From: a virus
Reading direction: 5' to 3' (one strand)
Virus genome (UHGV): UHGV-0103738
Length of the DNA: 24,037 bases
Shown here: piece after piece, positions 1,079 to 14,074 of the stretch
How the letters are laid out: each line of letters starts with the position of its first letter
How positions within the stretch are numbered: position 1 is the first letter of the stretch
Position numbers and translations under genes: made by a program
Notes under the pieces: model-generated
The model's input: only the letters and a program-made list of their open reading frames with translations
The model's database searches: none
What the model was told of the DNA's origin: nothing

Positions 1079-3091
1079 ATGCTTAAATTTCGCCGCGAAC
1101 TTAACGGTTACGGTGGAGTTATTAACGAAGGGCATAACGATCAATACGAATTTGAAATTGCTTTCTCCAGTGAACAGCCTTATCAGCGCCAATTCTGGGA
1201 TGAGCAAAATCAAGAAATGGTGGTATTAGATGAAATTCTGGTACATACACCGGAAGCGGTTGATCTGTCTCGTCTGAATAATAACGCTCCGTTGCTGTTT
1301 AATCATAATTTCGATAATCATTTAGGTGTCGTTTGTAACGCTCGAATCGATGCGGATAAAGTAGGCCGTGCGACCGTTAGATTCTCTAAGCATGGCACTT
1401 TGGCTAATGATATTCGTAATAAAGTCATTGAAGGTACGATGGAAAAAATTTCTGTCGGTTATGACATTAAAGAATATCACATCGATTATGCCAAAGGACA
1501 ATTGATTGTTACTAAGTTTGTTCCTTTCGAATTAAGTTTTGTTACGGTCCCGGCGGACGATTCGGTCGGTTTAAATCGCTCTCTAAATACTATCACAGTT
1601 AATTTGGAGGCTAAACGCGATATGACTAAAGAACAAATTGAAGAAATCAAAGAAGAACAAGAATCCGCTCAGGTTGAAGAAACTCCGGTAGAAGAAAATA
1701 AAGAACCGGAAGTTGAAGAAACTCAAGAGCGCCAAGTTGAAGAGAATAAAGAAGATGAAAATCTCGAAGACGGAAAAGACGCTGAACATCCTGAAAGTGT
1801 TGATGATGATAGTTCAACTGTTCGGGAAACAGAAGAAGTAAAAGAAGAACGTGAAGCTGCTCCGGTTGAAGAAGAAAAAACCGAGGAAGTGGCTGAACGT
1901 TCCGAAGAAGACGAATTAGAAATTCGCGAAATTGCACGCGAGTTAAATATTAACGAAGACGATGAAGAATTTAAACGCGCATTGGCAAATAAAGAAATTA
2001 CGCCGGAAGCATTCCGCACTAAGGCACTAAATAACATTACCAATGCTCAACGTAATAACGAACAAATTAATAAGGAACAAATCATGGAAAAAACTTTCGA
2101 TCTTAATAACGTAATCCGCTCCCTGGTAGATGGCGACGTGCTCGGCGCTAACGAAGCTGAATATTCCGCAATGGCTGCTACTGCAACTATGCAGCGTGGT
2201 CGTGCTGCTCGTGGTGGCTCTGTATTCGTTCCGGCTGCTGCTATGCGTGCTGCTGCTGATGGCAACACCAAAGCTAATCTGGTTGCTATCACTGACGAAA
2301 AACTGATGACTGAATCCTACATCGAAATGCTGTTGCCTCAGAGTGTTTTAGGCCGCCTCGGGGTGACTGTTTATAGTGGCTTGACTTCTCCGACCGCTAT
2401 TCCAAAAATGACTAAATCCAGCGTTGACGCTTTCGGATTCGTTGACGAAAATGGCGCTGCCCCCGAGTCACATGCGGAATTTTCGAACGTGAAACTGTCT
2501 CCGAAAACTTTTGCTGGTGGCAACCCGATCAGCCGTCAGTCGCTGAAAACCGTTCCGGGCATCGCTACCCTGATCACCGATCACATTAACAAATCTGTTC
2601 GGATCAAACTGGAACAACTGATTCTGTCTGATAAAGAAAATGCTCGTGGTCCGGCTGGTCTGGTTAAGCAACTGGTAGACGCTAGCCGCGTTACCAAGAA
2701 AGCTGCTTTCTCTTATAAAGACTTCCTGAAAGAAATTGCAGCACTGACTGACGCTGGCGTTCCTGCTCAGGCGATCAAGTTTGCGATGAGCGGTGCAACT
2801 GCTGCTGAACTGGAATCTACCCTGAAAGATAACGGCGTTTCCGGTTATATCATCGAAAACGGCAAACTGGCTGGTTACGAAGTAGTTACTTCTGGCGTTA
2901 TTCCGGCAGACCACATCGTTCTGGGTGACTTCTCCGGTATTACTATCGGTGAGTGGGGCGGTCTGGAACTGGATATGGATCTAACTACATACCGTGATCG
3001 TGGTGCGGTAGTGCCTCGTATCTTTGTAGATTTGGACTACGTTGTAGCACAGCCGGAAGCTCTGAAAGTTCTTCACATCTCCGCTGAATGA
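1079..3091 (+). CDS. Prohead protease / acidic scaffold-like linker / major capsid protein encoded in one reading frame (670 aa)
   Basis: Shine-Dalgarno AAAGGTGA at 1067-1074, ATG at 1079. N-terminal ~170 aa carry HK97-family prohead protease-like motifs (ISVGY, ELSFVTVPADD). A Glu/Lys-rich low-complexity segment spans ~1620-2080. The C-terminal ~335 codons switch to codons typical of highly expressed genes (ctg, cgt, ggt, gct, ttc), as expected for a major capsid protein. Stop is TGA at 3089-3091. Confidence 0.8.
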   Translation: MLKFRRELNGYGGVINEGHNDQYEFEIAFSSEQPYQRQFWDEQNQEMVVLDEILVHTPEAVDLSRLNNNAPLLFNHNFDNHLGVVCNARIDADKVGRATVRFSKHGTLANDIRNKVIEGTMEKISVGYDIKEYHIDYAKGQLIVTKFVPFELSFVTVPADDSVGLNRSLNTITVNLEAKRDMTKEQIEEIKEEQESAQVEETPVEENKEPEVEETQERQVEENKEDENLEDGKDAEHPESVDDDSSTVRETEEVKEEREAAPVEEEKTEEVAERSEEDELEIREIARELNINEDDEEFKRALANKEITPEAFRTKALNNITNAQRNNEQINKEQIMEKTFDLNNVIRSLVDGDVLGANEAEYSAMAATATMQRGRAARGGSVFVPAAAMRAAADGNTKANLVAITDEKLMTESYIEMLLPQSVLGRLGVTVYSGLTSPTAIPKMTKSSVDAFGFVDENGAAPESHAEFSNVKLSPKTFAGGNPISRQSLKTVPGIATLITDHINKSVRIKLEQLILSDKENARGPAGLVKQLVDASRVTKKAAFSYKDFLKEIAALTDAGVPAQAIKFAMSGATAAELESTLKDNGVSGYIIENGKLAGYEVVTSGVIPADHIVLGDFSGITIGEWGGLELDMDLTTYRDRGAVVPRIFVDLDYVVAQPEALKVLHISAE

Positions 3092-3988: not shown

Positions 3989-4822
3989 ATGAATATTACA
4001 CAAGATAACTTAGATATTTTCACGGGGTCACATGTTGAAGTGTCGATCTCTAACCAGATAGACAATCAGGTCGACTTTTTCGATCCTAGCTTTAGTTCCA
4101 TCGAGAACGTTGCAGCATTTCCTACGCTAACCGAATCCACAGAGATAGAAACTCTGGAAGAGTACGATCAGGACGCTACGGGGAAACTTGCTGGTTATCG
4201 TAGACTGGAACCGACAACACTCACGTTAAACCGTGTTCTGGATGACGAACATCAAGCAATGTTGATGAAAGCGGTAGAGGATAAAACACCTTTACGCTTC
4301 CGTATGTTCTATGTTGTGAACTCTGGCTATAGTGCTGCTAACACTGGTTACTATGTCATCTATGATGCTTACGTCACATCACACAAAACCCGTGGTAGTG
4401 ATAACAAAGCTGTAACACTGGAATTTAAACTTGAACCAGATGGCGGGATTTTGGATCGCGGTATTGCAACGGAGGGTCGTCTTCTCCGTCGCGGGGATTA
4501 TGGCGTAGGTGCAGGTGTACATCCATTCACAGGTCCGATTGATAGTGATGCTTTAGCCGGAAACCGTTTCGTAACTTACAAGGGAACTGCTAGCGGTAAT
4601 CCATATTCAGCCGACACATCATTAATTCACCTTCAAGCTAATGAGCATGGCGCATGGCAATTAACCTGTAATACTTCTGGCGCACCACGTTTACGCGTCC
4701 GAAATATTCAGGAAAACGGTCGCTCTGAATGGATCAAGGTATATTCCACCAATGAGAAACCGACACCTAGCGAAATTGGCGCAGTGGCTAAGACTGACCG
4801 GATCGATTTCGGCGAATACTAA
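3989..4822 (+). CDS. Tail-tube-like paralogue with a C-terminal domain carrying a tail-fibre motif (277 aa)
   Basis: SD AAGGGGTAA. N-terminal ~150 aa align by eye with the 157-aa tail tube protein (DIFTG..., AAFPTLTESTEIETLEEY vs AGFPETGIERGTVEVKSF, LRFRMFYVV vs IQIKVEYYV). The C-terminus has KVYSTNEKPTPSEIGAVAKTD, matching KMYHEGDKPTPGEIGAYTKAE in the fibre gene. Confidence 0.6.
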   Translation: MNITQDNLDIFTGSHVEVSISNQIDNQVDFFDPSFSSIENVAAFPTLTESTEIETLEEYDQDATGKLAGYRRLEPTTLTLNRVLDDEHQAMLMKAVEDKTPLRFRMFYVVNSGYSAANTGYYVIYDAYVTSHKTRGSDNKAVTLEFKLEPDGGILDRGIATEGRLLRRGDYGVGAGVHPFTGPIDSDALAGNRFVTYKGTASGNPYSADTSLIHLQANEHGAWQLTCNTSGAPRLRVRNIQENGRSEWIKVYSTNEKPTPSEIGAVAKTDRIDFGEY

Positions 4823-4901: not shown

Positions 4902-7900
4902 ATGCAGTCGATCCAATTTAAACGCACACAAACGGCTGGTAAAAAACCAACGCCGGAACAATTATCACAGGGCGAGATCGCCTTACAACTGGCGGACCAT
5001 GTGATTTACACCAAAGATAAAAATAATAACGTAGTCCAAATTAGTGTTTCTCCAGAAAAACACGCTGAACTGAATACGAAAGTAGACACCAACAAGGTCA
5101 ACACAGATAAAGTCATTTCAGCAAATAAAACCGAAGCCGCTAATAATCTGGCTACGGCTAAAGCTGAACTTAATCAGACTATCACTTCTACCCGTGATAC
5201 TCTCAATGCTTCAATCACTGCTGGCGATACCGCAGCCAACAAGCGAATTGATGCTTTGACTACCACAGTAGGTAACAATAAAACCGAAGCGGCTAACGCT
5301 CTGGCGGCTGCTAAGACTGAACTGAATCAGACTATTACTTCAACCCGCGATACTATCAACGCGACAATTAACAAGAACAAGACAGATATTAATGCGCGAG
5401 TTGATCAGACGAATACCAACGTTACCAACTTAACGAATACTGTCGCAGCAAATAAATCAGCAATAGAAAAGACGGTAGCGGATAATAAGAAAGATGCGGA
5501 CACGAAGATCACCAATCTTACTAGTACGGTCTCTGCGAATAAGACAGCCATTGAAAGAACTGTTGCAAATAACAAGGCCAGTGCCGATGCCGCAATTGCC
5601 GCAGCTAACCAGCGAATTGATTCTATTGAAGGTAGTGCCGATGCTGCTTACATCAAGAAGAATACCAATACTAAGCATGGTGGGTATCTGTTAAGCAAGA
5701 CAGCTAACTATTTGGAAGACCAGACAGCGAGAGATCTTAACTACTTTGGTGCTTTCCGTACCAATGGTCAAGATGGACTCATGGATCTAACTCTTAATGT
5801 TCCTCATTCTGCCGGTAAAGCGCACGGTCGCGGATTTACTTTCCGTTATGCGTCTGGTGGATCTCGTGTTGAAACCTATGGTTTTGATAGAGAAGGACAG
5901 AAGAACTTTAGCTATAAGATGTATCACGAAGGTGATAAGCCGACTCCTGGCGAGATTGGCGCATACACCAAAGCCGAAGTTGATAAGATGTTTGTTAAAA
6001 ACGTCGTTATGTCTGTTCCCAATTCTAGCGAAAACGTATCTGCATATTTCAAATTGGCAACCGCAACAATTCCACAAAACGGGCGTAGTGTGTTTTTCCG
6101 TATTCATGGTGGTAATGGTTACAACGTTACGGCATATGATCAGGTTGACGTAGTAGAAATTCTTCTGCGTAGTGGTAACGATAGACCTAAAGGTCTTAAC
6201 GTAATTGCATACCGTAGAAATACAAACAAAGATTTTGAGGTATTTGCTGTCAATACTTCCGGTGATAACTATGATATCTACGTGAAATATCAGCGTTATA
6301 CCGATAACGTTATTGTCGAATATGGGAAATCTGTTTATGTAAGTTTGACGGTTTATGATACGCCGGAAGCCACGTTAATTAAACCTTCCGTTGGTGTTAT
6401 CGGTGGTCGCAACGTAACTCTTTTTAATACTGAAAATAAACGTGGTGTGTTAAGTTTTGATGATAACACACAAAACAGCTATGACATTGTTCACTTGAGT
6501 AACGATAAAGGTACTGGACGGAAATATATTCGTAAATTCCGTAGCAACTATAACGAAATGGTTTGGCATGAAACCGTTCAGGGTGCTGTATATCGTCTTG
6601 CTACCGGTGCTACAGATTCTACAGAAGTTATTAGAATTGATTCTAATAGTGCAATACCGGGTAATTATAAAGGATATGTAATTACTGGTAAAATGGAATT
6701 GCACGGTAGTGGTAATGCGATGACTTTACATCGCCAGACTGGTCAAGCTGCATATATGGCGTGGTGGGATCGTCGTGATGGTAAAAACCAACGTAGTGGT
6801 TATATCGGTCATGCGGATGGTACTAGTGATGGTTTTGTGTGGCGTAATGATGTTGGTGCTAACTCATTTGATTTGGAAGGTAGTGGACAAGTAAATTTGA
6901 CTACAGGAAAAACAAAAATTGTATATACCAATGGTCAATATTATTCCGCTAACGCTGATGCATTCCGTATGATTTACGGTAAGTATGGTGCATTCTGGCG
7001 AAATGATGGTGGTAAAGTTTATCTGTTGTCTACTGCCGAAAATGATAGATTTGGTGGTTGGAACGGAAACCGACCATTCATTTACGATTTGACTAACGGT
7101 AAAGTTACTTTAGGTGGTGATGGTAACGAAGGCGCATTAGTTCTCGAAAGAGATAGCCGTGCTGCTCGATTTGCTGGCGATACATATATCGAGAAAGGGT
7201 TTTTAACCTTCTCTGCTGGGAGAAGCGGATCTCGTGATTATATTCGATTTAATCATTGGGGTGATAGTAATAATGCCCGTGATAACGTTTTGTACCTAGA
7301 AGATAGTCAAGGTAGACATTTTAGCACAGAGCGTGCGATGGGTACTGGTGCTCTTAAAGCAAACTTCTTAGGCGATCTTGAAGTTGGTGGTAAGTTTACT
7401 TGGGGTAAAAATACAGCTACATCCAGCTTTAATATTCGTGCTTGGGGTAACGATAGTCGTAAACAAGTATTAGAATGTGGTGATGAAAGTGGTTGGCATT
7501 GGTATACCCAACGTCCGGGCGGTCCGGGTACTACGGCAATTGAGTTTGCCATCAACGGTACTGTTAAGCCTCAAGCAATTCACACTGGCGGTAATATCAC
7601 GCTTAACGGTGCTGATATTGAATTTCGTCGCACTGGTAATAAGCATATCTGGTTTAGAGATCCAACTGGATTAGAACTAGGTTTGATGTATTCTGATGAT
7701 GCTGGTGTTATTCGCTTCCGTGGTCAGAAACAAGCCCAGACGTGGAAACTTGCGGATAAGATGATTCATCTTGAATCTGGTAGCGTCGGCGGATCTGATA
7801 AAGGTTTGATTCGTGGTAACGTTTCTGGTGGTAGCTGGTCTAGTTGGCGCGATCGTGCATCCGGCTTGCAAGTTGATTGCCCTCAATCAACCGATTCCGC

Positions 7901-8432
7901 TCATAACATCTGGAAAGCTACTCATTGGGGTAAATATCACATTGCAGCAATGGGTGTACACGTTCCTAGCGGTACTATCGGTAACGCTCTTGTTCGTCTG
8001 CATGTTAACGATACTAACTTTGACTTTAACGCTGCTGGTGACTTTACCGCAGGTCGTAACGGTAGCTTTAACGATGTTTACATTCGCTCTGACTCCCGTT
8101 TGAAGATTAACAAGGAAGAATTACAGGACGGTGCATTAGAGAAAGTAAACTCACTGAAAGTCTACACCTACGATAAAGTTAAATCTCTTTCCGATGACAC
8201 GGTGATTAAACGCGAAGTAGGTATTATTGCTCAGGATCTGGAAAAAGTATTGCCGGAAGCAGTAGGTATTCAATCCACCGAAGATCCAGAAAATCCAGAA
8301 GCAATCAAGACTATTTCTAACTCTGCTGTCAATGCTTTAATCATCAAGGCTATGCAGGAAATGGACGCCAAATATAAAGCACAGATCGAAGCATTACAGA
8401 AAGAAATTGCCGAACTGAAAGCAACTAAATAA
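4902..8432 (+). CDS. Side (L-shaped type) tail fibre with a C-terminal intramolecular chaperone / self-cleaving domain (1176 aa)
   Basis: SD GAGGTGA. N-terminal fibre-type motifs, a repeat-rich N/T/A shaft with 51-aa repeats, and a long Gly-rich beta region. The C-terminal ~114 aa begin RSDSRLKINKEE and end in a coiled coil, as in peptidase S74-type chaperone domains of phage fibres and endosialidases (Ser/Lys spacing S1063/K1068). Confidence 0.8.
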   Translation: MQSIQFKRTQTAGKKPTPEQLSQGEIALQLADHVIYTKDKNNNVVQISVSPEKHAELNTKVDTNKVNTDKVISANKTEAANNLATAKAELNQTITSTRDTLNASITAGDTAANKRIDALTTTVGNNKTEAANALAAAKTELNQTITSTRDTINATINKNKTDINARVDQTNTNVTNLTNTVAANKSAIEKTVADNKKDADTKITNLTSTVSANKTAIERTVANNKASADAAIAAANQRIDSIEGSADAAYIKKNTNTKHGGYLLSKTANYLEDQTARDLNYFGAFRTNGQDGLMDLTLNVPHSAGKAHGRGFTFRYASGGSRVETYGFDREGQKNFSYKMYHEGDKPTPGEIGAYTKAEVDKMFVKNVVMSVPNSSENVSAYFKLATATIPQNGRSVFFRIHGGNGYNVTAYDQVDVVEILLRSGNDRPKGLNVIAYRRNTNKDFEVFAVNTSGDNYDIYVKYQRYTDNVIVEYGKSVYVSLTVYDTPEATLIKPSVGVIGGRNVTLFNTENKRGVLSFDDNTQNSYDIVHLSNDKGTGRKYIRKFRSNYNEMVWHETVQGAVYRLATGATDSTEVIRIDSNSAIPGNYKGYVITGKMELHGSGNAMTLHRQTGQAAYMAWWDRRDGKNQRSGYIGHADGTSDGFVWRNDVGANSFDLEGSGQVNLTTGKTKIVYTNGQYYSANADAFRMIYGKYGAFWRNDGGKVYLLSTAENDRFGGWNGNRPFIYDLTNGKVTLGGDGNEGALVLERDSRAARFAGDTYIEKGFLTFSAGRSGSRDYIRFNHWGDSNNARDNVLYLEDSQGRHFSTERAMGTGALKANFLGDLEVGGKFTWGKNTATSSFNIRAWGNDSRKQVLECGDESGWHWYTQRPGGPGTTAIEFAINGTVKPQAIHTGGNITLNGADIEFRRTGNKHIWFRDPTGLELGLMYSDDAGVIRFRGQKQAQTWKLADKMIHLESGSVGGSDKGLIRGNVSGGSWSSWRDRASGLQVDCPQSTDSAHNIWKATHWGKYHIAAMGVHVPSGTIGNALVRLHVNDTNFDFNAAGDFTAGRNGSFNDVYIRSDSRLKINKEELQDGALEKVNSLKVYTYDKVKSLSDDTVIKREVGIIAQDLEKVLPEAVGIQSTEDPENPEAIKTISNSAVNALIIKAMQEMDAKYKAQIEALQKEIAELKATK
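5124..5429 (+). repeat. Two tandem 153-nt (51-codon) repeat units inside the fibre shaft
   Basis: AATAAAACCGAAGC(C/G)GCTAA...CTGAA(C/T)T(T/G)AATCAGACTAT(C/T)ACTTC recurs at 5124 and 5277. Protein units are NKTEAANNLATAKAELNQTITSTRDT... and NKTEAANALAAAKTELNQTITSTRDT... Confidence 0.7.
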
Positions 8433-8488: not shown

Positions 8489-8962
8489 ATGTCTCAGCAA
8501 TTCAAAGATATTTTTACTGGTGGTCTGGTAAGTCTGTTCTATCACGCCGATACCACTAACACCGACCTTGCCGATGAAGCATACGAAGAAATTAAAGAGT
8601 GTGCTGGTTTTCCTGAAACTGGTATCGAGCGCGGTACTGTAGAAGTTAAATCCTTCTCTTCTCAGTATAACCGTAAACTGGTAGGTAAACTGAACGTTCC
8701 TGATCTGACTCTGACCGTTAACTACATTCCTGGTGATGCGGTACATGAGAAGCTCATAAAGGCTGCCGAAGACGGTACGCGTATTCAAATCAAAGTTGAA
8801 TACTATGTTGACGCCGGAAAACAGACTGGTATTCGCACTGCTTTCAACGGCTTTATTTCTAAAGTTGCTATGAACGGTGGCGATGAAGAAGTGGTAACGA
8901 AAGAGTTTACCTTTGCTGTTGATGGTGCTCCGCTGAAACAGCAAATCTTCACTGCCGGATGA
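8489..8962 (+). CDS. Major tail tube protein (157 aa)
   Basis: SD AAGGGGTAA. Strongly biased highly-expressed codon usage. Lies upstream of the chaperone and tape-measure genes and is followed by a strong terminator. Stop is TGA at 8960-8962. Confidence 0.7.
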   Translation: MSQQFKDIFTGGLVSLFYHADTTNTDLADEAYEEIKECAGFPETGIERGTVEVKSFSSQYNRKLVGKLNVPDLTLTVNYIPGDAVHEKLIKAAEDGTRIQIKVEYYVDAGKQTGIRTAFNGFISKVAMNGGDEEVVTKEFTFAVDGAPLKQQIFTAG

Positions 8963-9093: not shown

Positions 9094-9121
9094 AGCCCTG
9101 CCTTAATGGTGGGGCTTTTTT
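9094..9121 (+). terminator. Rho-independent terminator after the tail tube gene
   Basis: Stem AGCCCTGCC / GGTGGGGCT, loop TTAAT, then a T-run. Same stem as the terminator at 3226-3252. Confidence 0.75.
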
Positions 9122-9136
9122 ATTGGAGTAATCAAA

Positions 9137-9643
9137 ATGGCAAATGTCGTTAAAGTTCCTGGCTGGATCGGGTCATCTGCTGTATCGGTGACGGGTAAGC
9201 GATGGATGAAAGAAGCATTAACAGCTTTAAAAGTTCCGGCTCCGCGTAATATGTCGGCAATGGCTGGTCGTGGTATGGATACGGTTGTAGCTACTGCATC
9301 GTGGTCTACTTCATTGGGTAATAACTGGGGTGTAACTGCTTCAAACTATCCTGTTTCCGGTATGCAAAGCAAAGGATCTATGGAGAACCCCGAAAACGTG
9401 GGCGTAGGGCGTCTGGTTGGCGTTATCGTTGGTCAATTCAATGGCGGTACTCCTACTATGGCTGTATATCTCCAGAACGGTAGAGCGGGGAATATAACCG
9501 TTAATTTGGGTGGTGCTGCTGTCACTGTTCCTTATAACAGTATGCAAAGTGGTTTTCATTACTATTGGTTAAGCAATCCTCCGGCTGCTTTCCTTACCAA
9601 CATTAAGAAGACTGGCACTAAGCAGACTTTGAAAATCTCTTAA
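9137..9643 (+). CDS. Hypothetical tail-associated protein (168 aa, Gly/Ser/Thr/Asn-rich)
   Basis: ORF with upstream GGAG, located between the tube gene and the chaperone genes. Composition suggests a beta-rich structural protein. No specific motif recognised. Confidence 0.45.
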   Translation: MANVVKVPGWIGSSAVSVTGKRWMKEALTALKVPAPRNMSAMAGRGMDTVVATASWSTSLGNNWGVTASNYPVSGMQSKGSMENPENVGVGRLVGVIVGQFNGGTPTMAVYLQNGRAGNITVNLGGAAVTVPYNSMQSGFHYYWLSNPPAAFLTNIKKTGTKQTLKIS

Positions 9644-9685
9644 ATTCTAAATAAACATATCGAATTAACTTAAGAGGAAACAAGA

Positions 9686-9994
9686 ATGAATATTAATGAA
9701 ATGCTGAAAGCTCTTTCTCCGAAACGTGAATCTCTGACCATCGGCGGATTCACGTTCTATGCTCGCCCTATGTCAGTAAAAGAATTTAACGAACATGTTT
9801 TCAATACTGATAAAGAAGACCGTGATGAACGTTCGATTCTTCGTTGTATTGAAGATGAAGACGGTAAACCGGTATTTGAATCTATGGAACAAGTTAAGGC
9901 ACTGTATACTAACGTCCGCAGTGAATTAATCGGTTTGGTTGCTCAAGCGTCATTGATGCAAGATCCGGCAGTAATTGAAAACGAGGTAAAGTAA
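9686..9994 (+). CDS. Tail assembly chaperone (lambda gpG-like by position, 102 aa)
   Basis: SD AGAGGAAA. Small acidic protein immediately upstream of the tape measure gene, with a second ORF in the -1 frame overlapping its 3' end. Confidence 0.55.
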   Translation: MNINEMLKALSPKRESLTIGGFTFYARPMSVKEFNEHVFNTDKEDRDERSILRCIEDEDGKPVFESMEQVKALYTNVRSELIGLVAQASLMQDPAVIENEVK

Positions 9995-10023
9995 ACCCGC
10001 TTCTGAATTTCTATTTTCGGCAA

Positions 10024-10374
10024 ATGATGCGATCGGGGCTTAGTAAAGATGAAATGGATAATATGCCAATCACTCTGTTTTGGAAATTATACATTTTCGA
10101 CACCTACTTAGAACCACAAAGCCCCGCGTTTCATGATATGCAGAATGCGATGTTGCAATATTCCATGTATATGACGTCGCAAGGAATGACTCGTGAAACT
10201 GCAAAGAAACTCAAGCCTAGCCAATTCCAATTAATTAGAGAAGAAAAACTCTTTAAAACTAAAGAAGAACTGGAAGAACTTGCACGCAAGAAAGAAGAAG
10301 AACGTAAAGCTGCAACATTGAGCATGTTCGATCCATCTTTGCTTGAGAAACTCAGAAGCGCACAAACGGGGTAA
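10024..10374 (+). CDS. Tail assembly chaperone -1 frame segment (gpT-like; frame open from 9979)
   Basis: ORF in the -1 frame relative to 9686..9994. No SD upstream of ATG 10024, and the frame is open back to 9979, overlapping the last five codons of the upstream gene. This fits expression as a frameshift fusion. Confidence 0.5.
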   Translation: MMRSGLSKDEMDNMPITLFWKLYIFDTYLEPQSPAFHDMQNAMLQYSMYMTSQGMTRETAKKLKPSQFQLIREEKLFKTKEELEELARKKEEERKAATLSMFDPSLLEKLRSAQTG

Positions 10375-10377
10375 TTT

Positions 10378-12810
10378 ATGACAAAACATATAGTAACAAT
10401 AGAAGGGGATAATAAAGGTCTAAGGAGAAGTACCAGTGAAGCCGCCGACCTTCTCGATAGTTTGTCTGAAAAGGCAAGTGGTATTGATTTTGGTGGTGGC
10501 TTGTCTGGTTTGACTGGATCTCTTCGTGGGATCGCTGGCTCTGCTGGTTTGGCTGCTGGTGGTATCGGCTTAGTTGCGACCGCAGTGGTTGCAGCCGCTA
10601 AAGCTGGTGCGGAATACGTTAAACAGTATTCAGAAGTATCTAAGGCGACCGGACTCTCGATTGAATCCCTTCAAAGACTAGAAAAGGAATTTTCTGGTAC
10701 TGGCCTAACAGTTGAAAAATTCGGTGATATCAACAAAGACACCTTAGATAAGATGGGTGATGCATGGGCTAACGGTGGTGGTATTGCTGATGACTTAGAA
10801 TCGGTTGGTCTTAAGTTAGAAAACTATGCTCACTTCATGACAGATCCGCAAGGTGGTATGAAAGCGGCGATCCAAGTGTTCTATGACATGAAGAAAGCCG
10901 GAAAATCAATGGCTGAAATCAAGTTCATGATGGAATCTTTAGCCAGTGATTCAAGCCATATGACCAGCCAGCTTGAGAAATATAATAGTGCTCAAGAGGC
11001 GATGATCGCTATTCAGAATCAATCTGTTAACGTCACCGAAGAAAACGCTAAAAAATATGATAAATTTTCTCAGAATATTAATAAGCTGGAAAATAACCTG
11101 AAAGGCGCAGCCATGACCATTACTGGTCCTTTGGTTGATAGCTTAAACTGGTTATTTGAATGGTTTAATATTGATTGGGAAAAGAGTTCTCTATTCAGGG
11201 CATTAGATCGACTGAATAAAGAAGGCAAGACCGCAACTGGTGGTATTCTTAACGCCAACCATAAAGACGCTCAAAAGATTATTGACAAGTACAATAAAGA
11301 AAAGCGTTGGAATAATCTAGCAGATTGGGAAAAGGCCGCGATCCGTGGTGCTGGTGTCGATCCTCGTACTGCTGGCTTTGATGTTGAAGGATTTAAGAAA
11401 CGTTTTGGTGGGTCTTATAAAACTTCAAGTGGTGCTCTGATTGTCGTAGATGCAGGTGAACATCTGACACGCAAGGCAGATCCTAACACTGATTTGACTA
11501 TACCAAATAAACCAGTAAGACCAGAATCATTGGGTAAGTCTGGCAACGAGAAGAAAGCCGAGGAAGAAGCCAAAAAGAAAGCGGAAGAGGCAGCTAAAAA
11601 GGCTAAGGAAGCCGCAGAAAAAGCACAGAAAGCACGCGAGGATGCAATCAAGCGACTGAATGCACTTGATGTTAAATTGCAAGGGCAAGTTGCAGCGTCT
11701 ATCACTTCTCAAAATAGCCAGTTGCAAAACAGCTTAAAAGATGTGAACGACGCGTTAGCTCTGGGCTTAATCTCTCAGGAAGACGCAGCCGCGAAACGCC
11801 AGGCGCTAATCGATCAGAATACTGAAAACGTTTATAAAATGATGTTGGGTGCTGATCCGATTGATGCTCTGAATGCTTTAACACAATTGCAACAAATCAG
11901 GGACAACGAGCTAGAAAGCCATAAACGGTTACTTGATGGTAAAGCTATCTCCTACGAAGAATATATGCGTCGTGTGAACGATACCGAGCAAAACTATTCT
12001 CAGATTGAAAATTCTTTACAGGGAATGGATGGTTATAAAACCAATCAATTAACTAGTGGTTATGATTATCAAGACTCAAATAATCCGTTTGCTAAATTTA
12101 ATGCAATCGATAAAGAGAAATCGGATGCTGAACAAGATTATAAGACCGATAAACTCAAGATTGACGGTATTAATGATCCGGCTAAACGGATGGAAGCATT
12201 AGAAAAACTCAATGAAAACCATCAAAAACGGATGGCTGCAATTGAAAAGAAATATGCTGATGCTCGTCAGTCAATAGCTGATGATATGTACGGCGGTTTT
12301 GCTGCTGCAATGACTCTCTTCGGGCAGGAAAACACAAAAGCTATGCAGATGGCTTTCAATGCTCATAAAGCATTCTCAATTGGACAAGCGACGGTGAACA
12401 TGTGGACGGCTGCTACCGATGCATGGAACGATCCGACCAACGTAACCACAGGTCAAAAGATCGCTGCTGCTGCATTGGCTGTTTCTCAGAACATGGGGAA
12501 CATTGCAAACATCAAGTCTACTAATGTTAGCGGTATGGCTCATGATGGTATCGATAACATCCCGCGTGAGGGTACATGGTTGCTTGATAAGGGTGAACGA
12601 GTAGTTGATCAGCGTACTAACGGTGATTTGAAAGACTTCTTATCTGCTCAAAAATCAGGCGGTGGTAACTCTCAGCCGATTGAAGTTAATGCGCCTTTGA
12701 ACATTAACGGCAACGTTAATAGCTCAGACAAGATGGTTATGGATGCTATCAAACGTCACGCTAAGTTAGTTGCTCAGGCGGTAGAAGACGCACAGCGTCG
12801 TAAGATGTAA
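10378..12810 (+). CDS. Tail tape measure protein (810 aa)
   Basis: Position after the chaperone pair. N-terminal Gly-rich hydrophobic segment, long coiled-coil and Lys/Glu/Ala-rich stretches, C-terminal Gly-rich region. Confidence 0.85.
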   Translation: MTKHIVTIEGDNKGLRRSTSEAADLLDSLSEKASGIDFGGGLSGLTGSLRGIAGSAGLAAGGIGLVATAVVAAAKAGAEYVKQYSEVSKATGLSIESLQRLEKEFSGTGLTVEKFGDINKDTLDKMGDAWANGGGIADDLESVGLKLENYAHFMTDPQGGMKAAIQVFYDMKKAGKSMAEIKFMMESLASDSSHMTSQLEKYNSAQEAMIAIQNQSVNVTEENAKKYDKFSQNINKLENNLKGAAMTITGPLVDSLNWLFEWFNIDWEKSSLFRALDRLNKEGKTATGGILNANHKDAQKIIDKYNKEKRWNNLADWEKAAIRGAGVDPRTAGFDVEGFKKRFGGSYKTSSGALIVVDAGEHLTRKADPNTDLTIPNKPVRPESLGKSGNEKKAEEEAKKKAEEAAKKAKEAAEKAQKAREDAIKRLNALDVKLQGQVAASITSQNSQLQNSLKDVNDALALGLISQEDAAAKRQALIDQNTENVYKMMLGADPIDALNALTQLQQIRDNELESHKRLLDGKAISYEEYMRRVNDTEQNYSQIENSLQGMDGYKTNQLTSGYDYQDSNNPFAKFNAIDKEKSDAEQDYKTDKLKIDGINDPAKRMEALEKLNENHQKRMAAIEKKYADARQSIADDMYGGFAAAMTLFGQENTKAMQMAFNAHKAFSIGQATVNMWTAATDAWNDPTNVTTGQKIAAAALAVSQNMGNIANIKSTNVSGMAHDGIDNIPREGTWLLDKGERVVDQRTNGDLKDFLSAQKSGGGNSQPIEVNAPLNINGNVNSSDKMVMDAIKRHAKLVAQAVEDAQRRKM

Positions 12811-12815
12811 TTAAA

Positions 12816-12859
12816 AGCCCCCATAGTCATAAATAATCATAAAACTATGGGGGCTTTTC
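12816..12859 (+). terminator. Hairpin with T-run after the tape measure gene
   Basis: Stem AGCCCCCATAG / CTATGGGGGCT (11 bp) with an 18-nt A/T-rich loop TCATAAATAATCATAAAA, followed by TTTT. Confidence 0.55.
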
Positions 12860-12860
12860 T

Positions 12861-13421
12861 ATGTTCAAATCCAAGAATATTAAAATCACAGATTTTACTC
12901 TTAAATCAAAACAACCTTTCTTCAAGGCGCAATCTATTTCTGGTAAGTTCCAGCGTCGCTTTACTGGCATTCATTTTTATGAAGCAGAATTTACAGCTAA
13001 TTTCATGGCTCAGGATATTAACGAAGTAAAAGAATTTGTAGCACGTCACCTTTTTGGTCGTCCTTTTAGTGTGCCACTGTCTTACTTTTCAAAATATACA
13101 GGTGATGTACGCCAGATGGTTACGGCTGCTGCTGGTACTGCTCGCGGTGGGCGTAAGGTGAGAATCTCCAACTTCACCGGAACACTGAAAGCGGGAACTA
13201 TCATCCAGTTTGAGAACCACAAGAAAATCTACACGATCACCGAAGACGTGAAATCAGGTGGTGAAATGAAACTCTTCCCTAACTTGCGTCAAAACGTCCT
13301 GGCTGGTGAGGTGATCAAGTATCAGAACGTAGAAGGCGAATTTGTTCTCAAAACTGAAAATATCGATTGGAAGATCGCCCAGATTGGCAAGATGAAATTC
13401 GAATTAGTGGAGAATGTATAA
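12861..13421 (+). CDS. Minor tail protein (distal tail protein candidate, 186 aa)
   Basis: First gene after the tape measure protein. Stop TAA overlaps the next start (TAATG at 13419-13423). Confidence 0.5.
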   Translation: MFKSKNIKITDFTLKSKQPFFKAQSISGKFQRRFTGIHFYEAEFTANFMAQDINEVKEFVARHLFGRPFSVPLSYFSKYTGDVRQMVTAAAGTARGGRKVRISNFTGTLKAGTIIQFENHKKIYTITEDVKSGGEMKLFPNLRQNVLAGEVIKYQNVEGEFVLKTENIDWKIAQIGKMKFELVENV

Positions 13422-14074
13422 TGGCAACTATTCAGGAATCATTCAGCAAACTATGCACTAATCTGGACTTCATCGAGGTCTACAACGACCAGACAGGTCA
13501 GAATGTGTCTAGATTGACTCTACCGCAGCTTTTCTCTACTGGATCGATGTTTCACATTATCGAAGTAGTAACCGCGTCAGGGGACGTTCTACGGCTTACA
13601 GATGGGTATTTCGATCTGGACTATAACGGATTTACGTATCTCGCAACGGGTGATTTTCTTCAAATCTCATCGAATACCGAAGAGAAGGAGATCAACAACA
13701 ACGGGATCAACGTAACTGTTTCTAACGTTCGCGAAGAATACATTACCCTGATTCGAAACAAGCAATTCGATAAATCTGATGTGAAAATCGAGATGGTTTT
13801 CCTTAACCCCAACACGGGCAAGGTTGAAACTACTTACCCTGTTTTCCGTGGGGTAGTCGATTCCATCGGTATTAACATCGAACATGAAGATGATGAGTGT
13901 AAAAACGAATCAGAATTTCAGCTTAATAGTATCTGGGAAGTTCTAGATAAAAACGCTCGTAGTCATGCCTCCGATGGTATCCACCGATCCTATGTTGGAA
14001 ACGAGAACGATCTATTCTTCTCCCGTGCCGGGAAGTGGCAAAGCGAAAGCAAGTGGCATTCATCGAAGAAATAA
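13421..14074 (+). CDS. Minor tail protein (217 aa; start at ATG 13421 rather than track start 13367)
   Basis: Same frame as track ORF 13367..14074. ATG 13421 overlaps the upstream stop by 1 nt. Sits at the lambda gpL-like position of the tail-tip cluster. Confidence 0.5.
   Translation: MATIQESFSKLCTNLDFIEVYNDQTGQNVSRLTLPQLFSTGSMFHIIEVVTASGDVLRLTDGYFDLDYNGFTYLATGDFLQISSNTEEKEINNNGINVTVSNVREEYITLIRNKQFDKSDVKIEMVFLNPNTGKVETTYPVFRGVVDSIGINIEHEDDECKNESEFQLNSIWEVLDKNARSHASDGIHRSYVGNENDLFFSRAGKWQSESKWHSSKK

What the first reader, a model, noticed from the sequence alone, without database searches (positions are those of the whole stretch)
9976..10026. Tail chaperone pair requires a -1 shift but lacks a canonical slippery heptamer
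The downstream ORF is in the -1 frame, has no SD, and its frame opens only at 9979, so any shift must occur within 9979-9991 (AAACGAGGTAAAG). No X-XXY-YYZ heptamer is present there. Candidates are GAAAAC or GGTAAAG just before the TAA. This looks like a non-canonical frameshift site.
Basis: partly seen in the sequence, partly recalled or inferred. Interest (0 to 1): 0.5.

Follow-up and report, generated by a model that had tools for sequence, protein, structure and literature searches.

The report
Tail chaperone frameshift at A_AAG
An E. coli prophage most likely makes its second tail-assembly chaperone by letting a few ribosomes slip back one base on the short sequence A-AAG at the very end of the first chaperone gene, which is a known, minimal kind of slip site rather than a new mechanism.

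Summary
ORF G (9686-9994) ends GAG GTA AAG TAA. The downstream T frame is -1, opens at 9979 after TGA 9976-8 and runs to 10374. G contains no X_XXY_YYZ heptamer, and ATG 10024/10027 has no Shine-Dalgarno sequence.

Comparison with 18 further lineages (30-92% identity) places the shift at G_GUA_AAG (9985-9991), core A_AAG. Every lineage has exactly one zero-frame A_AAG in the G/T overlap, at the homologous codon. The codon before it varies: GUA, GAA, UCA, or the canonical A_AAA_AAG and U_UUA_AAG. That lysine is AAG in 18/18 lineages, against 27% AAG elsewhere in these genes.

The 10 codons between the site and the first ATG evolve as coding sequence in the T frame. Several relatives have no ATG there. 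No in-frame G-T fusion was found among database T homologues.

No downstream RNA structure or conserved upstream SD-like element exists. The adjacent stop codon is common but dispensable. GAAAAC is not conserved.

The site differs from lambda's G_GGA_AAG by one base and belongs to the known A_AAG / NNA_AAG class (IS1222, B. subtilis cdd). It is a new member of a known kind. The fusion protein and its yield remain untested.

The parts
9686..9994 (+). Gene G: tail assembly chaperone, 102 aa, made by ordinary translation ending at TAA 9992-9994
   Evidence: ORF listing and translation. Phage_TAC_13 is hit by 18 of 21 family members (best E 6.1e-6; the window protein scores 1.8e-4, below the Pfam cut-off). 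PHROG 344 tail assembly chaperone, E 2.3e-7. AlphaFold model with pLDDT 79.7; best PDB match is the HK97 tail assembly chaperone 2OB9 (prob 1.00, TM 0.54-0.60).
9976..9978 (+). TGA in the -1 frame, the upstream limit of the T reading frame
   Evidence: Read directly from the sequence. A stop just upstream of the shift site closes the -1 frame in every relative (overlap with G of 7-106 nt); it lies at the homologous position in the nearer relatives such as L021, L030 and L039.
9985..9991 (+). Proposed -1 shift site G_GUA_AAG. The core is A_AAG (9988-9991): tRNA-Lys moves from AAG (9989-9991) to AAA (9988-9990).
   Evidence: It is the only zero-frame A_AAG in G. A single zero-frame NNA_AAG is present at the homologous codon in all 19 lineages, including canonical A_AAA_AAG and T_TTA_AAG versions. 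The lysine codon is AAG in 18/18 lineages, against 27% AAG elsewhere in the same genes.
9992..9994 (+). Zero-frame stop TAA directly 3' of the shift codon. It ends G and may pause the ribosome with tRNA-Lys in the P site.
   Evidence: TAA directly follows AAG in 9 of 19 lineages and comes one codon later in 5. It is 4-11 codons away in L052, L053, L055, L046 and DCP80, so it is frequent but not required.
9991..10374 (+). T-frame segment read after the shift: 127 codons plus TAA. Together with G codons 1-102 it gives a 229-aa G-T fusion with junction ...IENEVK|VNPLLNFYFRQMMR...
   Evidence: Translation. Phage_tail_T is hit by 8 of 18 family members (best E 1.9e-6; the window protein scores 6e-4, below the cut-off). 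Protein conservation begins at the junction. Synonymous changes are in excess in the T frame upstream of the ATG.
10024..10029 (+). ATG ATG: internal Met-Met codons of the T frame, not a start site
   Evidence: No SD (anti-SD pairing -1.1 and -1.7 kcal/mol). The first ATG is replaced by ATT or TTA in L039, L046 and L053. Both are absent in L041, L042, L049 and DCP80 (ILRRGL, LILRGL).
8489..8962 (+). Tail tube protein, the expected partner of the T domain (context)
   Evidence: Phage_TTP_11, E 1.8e-6, and PHROG 158 major tail protein, E 7.5e-22.
10378..12810 (+). Tape measure protein, the expected partner of the G domain (context)
   Evidence: PHROG 13674 tail length tape measure protein, E 2.4e-64.

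Best explanation
This is the G/GT tail-assembly-chaperone pair of a lambda-like siphovirus prophage of E. coli.

Most ribosomes translate G (9686-9994) and terminate at TAA 9992, giving the 102-aa chaperone. A small fraction shift -1 at G_GUA_AAG (9985-9991). The single E. coli tRNA-Lys (anticodon mnm5s2UUU), paired with AAG 9989-9991, re-pairs with AAA 9988-9990. The ribosome then reads GUA 9991, AAC and onward to 10374. The product is a 229-aa G-T fusion with junction ...ENEVK-VNPLL...

The P-site tRNA-Val on GUA cannot re-pair properly with GGU. The event is therefore a single-tRNA slip of the A_AAG / NNA_AAG type, not tandem slippage.

Shown here:
- the frame geometry;
- conservation of the site at codon level;
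- coding constraint in the T frame upstream of any start codon;
- absence of an RNA structure or SD stimulator.

Inferred:
- that the fusion is actually made;
- its yield, expected to be low (a few percent or less);
- whether the slip happens with tRNA-Lys in the A site, or in the P site while UAA waits for a release factor;
- the division of labour, taken from lambda: G binds the tape measure protein and T binds the tail tube protein.
For: 1. Geometry. T is in the -1 frame, opens 13 nt before the G stop, and has no start codon before 10024 and no SD there.

2. Conservation of the arrangement. In 19 lineages the downstream ORF is always in the -1 frame and always overlaps the end of G. This includes Salmonella, Edwardsiella, Buttiauxella and Rouxiella prophages and phage DCP80, some only about 30% identical in G. 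Each overlap contains exactly one zero-frame A_AAG, at the homologous codon. The motifs are:
- G_GUA_AAG: window, L021, L037, L039, L052, L053
- A_GUA_AAG: L030, L046
- G_GAA_AAG: L034, L041, L042, L045, L048
- A_GAA_AAG: L049
- G_UCA_AAG: L051
- canonical A_AAA_AAG: L033, L035, L055
- canonical U_UUA_AAG: DCP80

3. Codon choice. The site lysine is AAG in 18/18 lineages, against 27% AAG (101 of 373 Lys codons) elsewhere in the same G and T genes. Valine at the site is GUA in all eight lineages that have Val, against 33% GUA elsewhere.

4. Background rate. In-frame A_AAG occurs at only 0.3-0.5% of codons.

5. Coding constraint upstream of the ATG. In the 10 codons between the site and the first ATG, codon differences among 8 lineages are 74 synonymous to 106 non-synonymous in the T frame. 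In the other two frames the counts are 29:171 and 10:192. Protein conservation (K-V-N-P-L-L-x-F-Y-F-R-Q-M-M-R-x-G-L-S) starts at the junction.

6. Missing start codons. The ATG at the MMR position is absent in L041, L042, L049 and DCP80. There the first start codon lies 19-38 residues into the T frame.

7. In-frame indel. A 3-nt insertion directly after the site in L014 keeps both frames.

8. No fusions. Nineteen T homologues were found among 1.84 billion representative proteins. All are 62-130 aa, with no in-frame G-T fusion.

9. Identity of the proteins. G is a tail assembly chaperone by Pfam, PHROG and fold (HK97 chaperone 2OB9). T-family members hit lambda's Phage_tail_T. The gene order is tail tube, (gp38), G, T, tape measure.

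10. Comparison with lambda. Lambda's site GCG GGA AAG differs from this one by a single base (GGGAAAG vs GGTAAAG).

11. Literature. A_AAG is the most shift-prone tetramer in E. coli. NNA_AAG sites are used by IS1222 and occur in B. subtilis cdd (PMC5009743, PMC4066793). X_XXY_YYZ is absent from most annotated tail-chaperone overlaps (PMC10885494).
Against: - No protein evidence is available. The fusion and its yield are untested.
- In reporter assays, bare Z_ZZN tetramers without a stimulator were barely above background (0.147% vs 0.112%). A_AAG reached 5.6% only with the IS3 pseudoknot (PMC4066793).
- No stimulator was found here. RNA 9985-10075 folds worse than shuffles (z = +1.58). The 70 nt downstream give z from -1.5 to +1.9 across 19 lineages. 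The alignment consensus structure is -0.73 kcal/mol. No Rfam family reaches its threshold.
- GAGG at 9983-9986 sits immediately 5' of the site. At such short spacing an SD-like sequence is expected, from my own recollection of dnaX and prfB work, to disfavour rather than favour -1 shifting. It is not conserved.
- The Pfam hits of the window's own G and T proteins are below the curated cut-offs. A profile comparison of the T family with lambda T found nothing.
- The lineages are related by descent, so the counts overstate the number of independent observations.
Confidence: 0.85

Rival explanations
1. T is made on its own, without a frameshift. Ribosomes either initiate independently, or terminate at TAA 9992 and re-initiate at ATG 10024/10027 or at the downstream ATGs 10054/10063. 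The product would be a free 100-116-aa T protein.
For: ATG ATG lies 30 nt after the G stop. PGAP annotates the homologous ORF as a separate 100-aa gene starting at the ATG equivalent to 10063, with no slippage. Gene callers start most database homologues at the Met of MMR. Weak purine-rich stretches precede ATG 10054 (-5.0 kcal/mol) and ATG 10063 (-3.1 kcal/mol).
Against: ATG 10024/10027 has no SD. The 10 codons upstream of the ATG are under T-frame coding constraint. Protein conservation begins at the junction. The ATG is missing in L041, L042, L049 and DCP80, and half-missing in L039, L046 and L053. The -1 frame relation, the overlap and an in-frame A_AAG are kept in all 19 lineages, which free initiation would not require.
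Confidence: 0.07
2. The shift is real but happens at the reader's other candidate, GAA_AAC (9977-9982), with tRNA-Asn slipping from AAC to AAA.
For: It lies inside the permitted window, and the run AAAA allows partial re-pairing.
Against: It is not conserved. The homologous positions read GAA GAA, GAA CAA, GTC GAA, GAA CTG and so on in relatives that keep NNA_AAG. [quoted passage not shown] Per the review, E. coli tRNA-Asn promotes only double-type slippage, not single slippage (PMC5009743).
Confidence: 0.03
3. The frame change is a +5 hop rather than a -1 slip. Peptidyl-tRNA-Val detaches from GUA 9986-9988 and lands on GUA 9991-9993, skipping the Lys codon. The junction would be ...ENEV-NPLL...
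For: GUA AAG UAA contains matched take-off and landing GUA codons 5 nt apart. These are conserved in the GUA lineages whose stop is adjacent (window, L021, L030, L037, L039) and in L014.
Against: Lineages with GAA_AAG UAA UAC, UCA_AAG UAA GAA or UUA_AAG CCG have no matching landing codon, and neither do the GUA lineages L046, L052 and L053 (GUA AAG GAA / AAA), yet all keep A_AAG. The A-site codon AAG is a sense codon decoded by the cell's single tRNA-Lys, not a hungry or stop codon that would favour hopping (inference).
Confidence: 0.03
4. Nothing is programmed. T is a decaying or unexpressed ORF in a defective prophage, and the A_AAG is kept only because G ends in Val-Lys.
For: The element is a prophage. 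There is no expression data, and bare tetramers are weak in reporters (PMC4066793).
Against: The T frame stays open for 124-159 codons in all lineages, with a conserved protein sequence and a Phage_tail_T signal. The full morphogenesis module around it is intact. The codon-level choice of AAG (18/18 vs 27%) and of an A-ending preceding codon goes beyond conservation of the amino acids.
Confidence: 0.02

Closest known systems
Phage lambda G / G-T programmed -1 frameshift (slip site G_GGA_AAG; Levin, Hendrix and Casjens 1993; Xu, Hendrix and Duda 2004, as cited in PMC5009743)
   Same: Two small ORFs lie between the tail tube and tape measure genes. The second is in the -1 frame and has no start of its own. 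The slip is near the end of G on a heptamer ending A_AAG. I found no stimulatory element here, and as I recall lambda needs none either. The A-site event is identical: tRNA-Lys moves from AAG to AAA. The heptamers differ by one base, GGGAAAG vs GGTAAAG. G has the tail-chaperone fold, and T-family members hit lambda's Phage_tail_T.
   Different: The P-site codon is GUA instead of GGA, so tRNA-Val cannot re-pair cognately on GGU, which has a mismatch at the middle position. The site is therefore not X_XXY_YYZ. The zero-frame stop follows the shift codon directly, whereas in lambda it comes five codons later. Sequence similarity to lambda G and T is marginal.
NNA_AAG hexanucleotide / A_AAG tetranucleotide -1 sites: IS1222 (G_CGA_AAG), B. 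subtilis cdd (A_CGA_AAG), IS3 (A_AAG) (PMC5009743, PMC4066793)
   Same: A single tRNA-Lys slips on A_AAG, with a preceding NNA codon that cannot re-pair in the -1 frame. The output is low-level and yields a C-terminally extended fusion.
   Different: As I recall, those sites use CGA (an inosine-containing tRNA-Arg) and have stimulators: a downstream structure in IS1222 and IS3, and an upstream SD-like sequence in cdd. Here the preceding codon is GUA (GAA, UCA, AAA or UUA in relatives), and no structure or conserved SD-like element is detectable.
E. coli dnaX A_AAA_AAG
   Same: Relatives L033/L040, L035 and L055 carry exactly this heptamer at the homologous position.
   Different: dnaX relies on an upstream SD-like sequence and a downstream hairpin and shifts at high frequency. 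The window has neither the full heptamer nor the stimulators.

Membership tests
Tailed-phage G/GT tail assembly chaperone frameshift (Xu, Hendrix and Duda 2004 type) | Two ORFs lie between the major tail (tube) gene and the tape measure gene | tested here: met
   Tail tube 8489-8962, (gp38 9137-9643 inserted), G 9686-9994, T frame 9979-10374, tape measure 10378-12810.
Tailed-phage G/GT tail assembly chaperone frameshift (Xu, Hendrix and Duda 2004 type) | The second ORF overlaps the end of the first in another frame and lacks its own start signal | tested here: met
   It is in the -1 frame with a 13-nt overlap. There is no start codon before 10024 and no SD there. The ATG is absent in several relatives.
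Tailed-phage G/GT tail assembly chaperone frameshift (Xu, Hendrix and Duda 2004 type) | The arrangement and a slip-prone sequence in the overlap are conserved among diverged relatives | tested here: met
   19 of 19 lineages have the -1 frame and one zero-frame NNA_AAG in the overlap.
Tailed-phage G/GT tail assembly chaperone frameshift (Xu, Hendrix and Duda 2004 type) | The first ORF is a tail assembly chaperone | tested here: met
   Phage_TAC_13 is hit by 18/21 members. PHROG 344. The best fold match is the HK97 tail assembly chaperone 2OB9, prob 1.00. The window protein's own Pfam score (22.3 bits) is below the 28.8-bit cut-off.
Tailed-phage G/GT tail assembly chaperone frameshift (Xu, Hendrix and Duda 2004 type) | The second segment is a T-type domain (Pfam Phage_tail_T) | tested here: inconclusive
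   The window scores 20.6 bits against a 25.9-bit cut-off (E 6e-4). 8 of 18 family members hit, with best E 1.9e-6. hhalign against lambda T gives probability 0.3.
Tailed-phage G/GT tail assembly chaperone frameshift (Xu, Hendrix and Duda 2004 type) | A G-T fusion protein is produced at a low fixed ratio to G and is needed for tail assembly | not testable with these tools
   This needs expression, mass spectrometry and genetics.
Canonical tandem-slippage -1 site (X_XXY_YYZ) | A zero-frame heptamer with XXX and YYY triplets allows both the P-site and A-site tRNAs to re-pair | tested here: not met
   There is no such heptamer in G. In G_GUA_AAG only the A-site half fits. Some relatives do meet the criterion: A_AAA_AAG and U_UUA_AAG.
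Z_ZZN tetranucleotide / NNA_AAG hexanucleotide -1 site (PMC4066793, PMC5009743) | A zero-frame A_AAG allows cognate re-pairing of tRNA-Lys on AAA | tested here: met
   GTA AAG at 9986-9991. It is the only such motif in G. AAG is kept in 18/18 lineages against 27% background.
Z_ZZN tetranucleotide / NNA_AAG hexanucleotide -1 site (PMC4066793, PMC5009743) | An accompanying stimulator is present (downstream hairpin or pseudoknot, or an upstream SD-like sequence at about 10-14 nt), as in IS3, IS1222 and cdd | tested here: not met
   Fold z = +1.58. Across 19 lineages z ranges from -1.5 to +1.9, with no conserved anti-SD pairing. No conserved structure. No Rfam match reaches its threshold. An adjacent UAA is the only candidate enhancer, and it is dispensable.

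The most novel reading that the evidence does not exclude
This prophage family may run an essential programmed -1 frameshift on a bare A_AAG. There would be no P-site re-pairing, no RNA structure and no SD-like stimulator, only a frequently adjacent UAA acting as a 'shifty stop' that lets P-site tRNA-Lys slip backwards. If so, the family's natural series forms an evolutionary titration of how much the P-site codon and the stop contribute to bacterial -1 frameshifting. The series runs GUA, GAA, UCA, UUA and AAA before AAG, with the stop 0, 1 or 4-11 codons away. It would also show that reporter-measured 'background' tetramers can be biologically sufficient in their native context.
Probability: 0.3. 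Interest if true: 0.4.

Novelty: new member of a known kind. Interest (0 to 1): 0.27.

Why it matters
There are three practical consequences.

1. Annotation. In RefSeq E. coli genomes the pair is annotated as two unrelated small ORFs. G is sometimes named 'cytochrome', and T is started at an internal ATG. Heptamer-based frameshift finders will miss it. The fusion CDS should be join(9686..9991, 9991..10374).

2. The rule for finding such sites. The family illustrates that for tail-chaperone frameshifts the conserved element is the A-site A_AAG, not the heptamer.

3. Experimental material. The family supplies a ready set of natural variants for measuring P-site and stop-codon context effects.

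It does not reveal a new recoding mechanism.

Tried and rejected
- Megablast of 9100-12900 against GenBank phages found no match. tblastn found only phage DCP80, at 33% identity.
- The genome-contig scan returned only 3 loci.
- Searching the 5.8-billion-protein collection with the hypothetical 229-aa fusion returned no hit at all, although G alone gave 31. I treat this as uninformative, not as evidence against fusions. The HMMER scan of representatives with the T segment answered the question instead: there are no long fusions.
- Downstream hairpin or pseudoknot: rejected.
- Known frameshift RNA elements in Rfam: none. All 8 listed matches are far below their gathering scores.
- Upstream SD-like stimulator: GAGG 9983-9986 exists in the window but is absent from L030, L037, L039 and most others. 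It is also too close to the site.
- Requirement for the adjacent stop codon: rejected, because L052, L053, L055, L046 and DCP80 lack it.
- Transcriptional slippage: rejected for the window, because the A run is only 3 nt. This rests on the sequence plus general knowledge that longer homopolymers are needed.
- +1 frame: open for only 17 codons.
- hhalign of the T family against lambda T found no significant match.
- Literature searches for GUA_AAG or GGTAAAG as a phage tail slip site found nothing relevant. Licznar et al. 2003, which holds data on NNA_AAG efficiencies, is not held in the library.

Full report
**1. The observation**

The window carries a siphovirus-type morphogenesis module. In order, the genes are:

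| Coordinates | Gene |
|---|---|
| 1-1032 | portal |
| 1079-3091 | protease/major-head fusion |
| 3989-4822 | tail-tube-like ORF |
| 4902-8432 | gp37-like long tail fibre |
| 8489-8962 | tail tube protein |
| 9137-9643 | gp38-type adhesin |
| 9686-9994 and 10024-10374 | two small ORFs |
| 10378-12810 | tape measure protein (810 aa) |
| downstream of 12810 | distal tail and hub proteins, 1258-aa fibre, endolysin |

The first small ORF, G (9686-9994, 102 aa), ends GAA AAC GAG GTA AAG TAA. The second lies in the -1 frame. TGA 9976-9978 closes that frame, so it is open from 9979 to TAA 10372-10374. Its first ATG/GTG/TTG is ATG 10024.

G contains no zero-frame X_XXY_YYZ. The 17 nt before ATG 10024 and 10027 pair with the anti-SD at only -1.1 and -1.7 kcal/mol.

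**2. What the two ORFs are**

- G hits Pfam Phage_TAC_13 weakly (E 1.8e-4, below the cut-off) and PHROG 344 'tail assembly chaperone'.
- 18 of 21 family members hit Phage_TAC_13.
- An AlphaFold model of G (pLDDT 79.7) has the HK97 tail assembly chaperone 2OB9 as its only meaningful PDB match (prob 1.00, TM 0.54-0.60).
- The T-frame product hits lambda's Phage_tail_T weakly (E 6e-4). 8 of 18 family members hit it, with best E 1.9e-6.

Position, size and family all fit a lambda-type G/T pair.

The element is a prophage of E. coli and its relatives. There are 53 complete E. coli genomes with DNA matches at mostly 90-99% identity. Protein relatives occur in Shigella, Salmonella, Proteus and Edwardsiella. 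In RefSeq the two ORFs are annotated separately. T is started at an internal ATG (equivalent to 10063), and G is often named 'cytochrome'.

**3. Where the shift occurs: comparative evidence**

I collected relatives from several sources:
- IMG/VR;
- species-representative genomes;
- phage DCP80;
- three contigs chosen because their G proteins carry a 4-residue C-terminal extension.

In all 19 lineages compared (G identity to the window from 92% down to about 30%), the downstream ORF is in the -1 frame and overlaps the end of G. The overlap contains exactly one zero-frame A_AAG, at the homologous codon.

| Heptamer | Lineages |
|---|---|
| G_GUA_AAG | window, L021, L037, L039, L052, L053 |
| A_GUA_AAG | L030, L046 |
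| G_GAA_AAG | L034, L041, L042, L045, L048 |
| A_GAA_AAG | L049 |
| G_UCA_AAG | L051 |
| A_AAA_AAG (canonical) | L033/L040 Buttiauxella, L035 Rouxiella, L055 |
| U_UUA_AAG (canonical) | DCP80 |

The invariant element is therefore A_AAG. The first three bases are free, and some relatives have a textbook heptamer exactly there.

Codon usage shows that this is selection on nucleotides, not only on the Val-Lys C-terminus:
- The site lysine is AAG in 18/18 lineages, against 27% AAG elsewhere in the same genes.
- Valine at the site is always GUA, against 33% elsewhere.
- In-frame A_AAG occurs at only 0.3-0.5% of codons. That gives about 1.2% chance of finding one in the window's 4-codon overlap.

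The lineages share ancestry, so these numbers overstate independence. Synonymous sites elsewhere in G are nonetheless well shuffled among the same sequences.

**4. Evidence that T is read from the shift site, not from the ATG**

- The T-frame protein alignment is conserved from the junction onward: K|V-N-P-L-L-x-F-Y-F-R-Q-M-M-R-x-G-L-S.
- Among 8 lineages, the 10 codons between the site and the first ATG differ by 74 synonymous and 106 non-synonymous codon changes in the T frame. The other two frames give 29:171 and 10:192.
- The first ATG is replaced by ATT or TTA in L039, L046 and L053.
- Both Met codons are absent in L041, L042, L049 and DCP80. There the first possible start lies 19-38 residues into the T frame, and none has an SD.
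- L014 carries a 3-nt insertion immediately after the site that preserves both frames.
- An exhaustive HMMER scan of 1.84 billion representative proteins found 19 T homologues. All are 62-130 aa, so no lineage has resolved the arrangement into an in-frame fusion.

**5. Stimulators**

None was found.
- RNA 9985-10075 folds less well than its shuffles (-11.6 kcal/mol, z = +1.58).
- The 70 nt downstream of the site give z between -1.5 and +1.9 across 19 lineages.
- The alignment consensus structure is negligible (-0.73 kcal/mol).
- No Rfam family reaches its threshold.
- The window's GAGG (9983-9986) is not conserved. It sits directly against the site, a spacing that I recall favours +1 rather than -1 shifting.
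- The zero-frame UAA follows AAG directly in 9 lineages and after one codon in 5. It is 4-11 codons away in L052, L053, L055, L046 and DCP80. It may help, but it is not required.

**6. Mechanism**

The best-supported reading is a programmed -1 frameshift by single-tRNA slippage. E. coli's only tRNA-Lys pairs less well with AAG than with AAA (PMC5009743). It moves from AAG 9989-9991 to AAA 9988-9990, and decoding continues at GUA 9991. The product is a 229-aa G-T fusion, ...IENEVK-VNPLLNFYFRQMMR...

tRNA-Val on GUA would face GGU, with a G:A clash at the middle position. Relatives with AGU or GUC in that place are worse still. P-site re-pairing therefore cannot be part of the conserved mechanism.

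Sequence cannot tell whether the slip occurs with tRNA-Lys in the A site, or in the P site while UAA awaits a release factor. Both routes give the same protein.

The likely yield is low. In reporters, bare tetramers were near background (0.147% vs 0.112%), and A_AAG reached 5.6% only with a pseudoknot (PMC4066793). Lambda needs only about 1 GT per 30 G (PMC5009743). Whether the native context here reaches a useful level is the main open point.

**7. Comparison with what is known**

The closest system is lambda G/G-T. Lambda's site is GCG GGA AAG, followed by five codons and then the stop. The window's heptamer differs from it by one base.

By site type it belongs with the Z_ZZN / NNA_AAG class, described for IS3, for IS1222 (G_CGA_AAG) and for B. 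subtilis cdd (A_CGA_AAG) (PMC5009743, PMC4066793).

Non-heptamer motifs are already reported to be common in annotated tail-chaperone overlaps (PMC10885494).

The finding is therefore a correctly spotted, previously unannotated member of a known kind. It is interesting mainly for annotation and as a natural series of P-site and stop-codon contexts.

**8. Rivals**

| Rival | Weight |
|---|---|
| Independent initiation or re-initiation of T | 0.07 |
| Slip at GAA_AAC | 0.03 |
| +5 hop from GUA to GUA | 0.03 |
| No expression of T | 0.02 |

The rival entries give the evidence against each. Mass spectrometry of the junction peptide would discriminate all of them.

Noticed in passing
window 4902-8432 and 9137-9643; L052 1-823; L055 1-889; L036: A T-even-type long tail fibre (gp37-like, 1176 aa) and a gp38-type adhesin sit inside this siphovirus tail module. 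Their order relative to the tail tube gene differs among relatives. The window and E. coli have fibre, tube, gp38, G. Edwardsiella (L052) and L055 have fibre, gp38, tube, G.
   Followed up: partly
window 3989-4822: A second tail-tube-like ORF (277 aa, PHROG 158 major tail protein, E 5.8e-9) lies upstream of the fibre gene, in addition to the 157-aa tube protein at 8489-8962.
   Followed up: no
window 9686-9994 (homologues P0001, P0005-P0027): NCBI and UniRef records name this tail assembly chaperone 'cytochrome'. This appears to be a propagated misnomer, since there is no cytochrome signal in Pfam.
   Followed up: partly
L032 (Escherichia phage DCP80, PQ671644.1 9777-18342): This 141-kb record is filed under Straboviridae/Gaprivervirus. 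It carries a siphovirus-like module of a 164-aa ORF (possibly the tail tube, not tested), G, T and an 804-aa ORF at the tape-measure position, with a canonical T_TTA_AAG slip site. All genes are annotated 'hypothetical', and G and T are annotated as separate genes.
   Followed up: partly
L014 3300-3315: A 3-nt insertion lies directly after the slip site (GTAAAGTAGTAAAC against GTAAAGTAAAC). It changes the G stop to TAG and adds one Val to the T frame, and it keeps both reading frames.
   Followed up: partly
L029 3001-3222: In this UViG, similarity to G stops at residue 74 and the sequence then diverges completely. This suggests an insertion or rearrangement inside the chaperone gene.
   Followed up: no
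window 1079-3091: The 670-aa head gene matches both major head protein families and a 'major head and protease' family. It is therefore probably a fused protease/scaffold and capsid gene.
   Followed up: no
window 12861-13421 / 13367-14074: The distal tail protein ORF and the next ORF overlap by 55 nt in different frames. The second ORF is listed from a TTG start and matches a hub N-terminal domain. Its true start was not examined.
   Followed up: no
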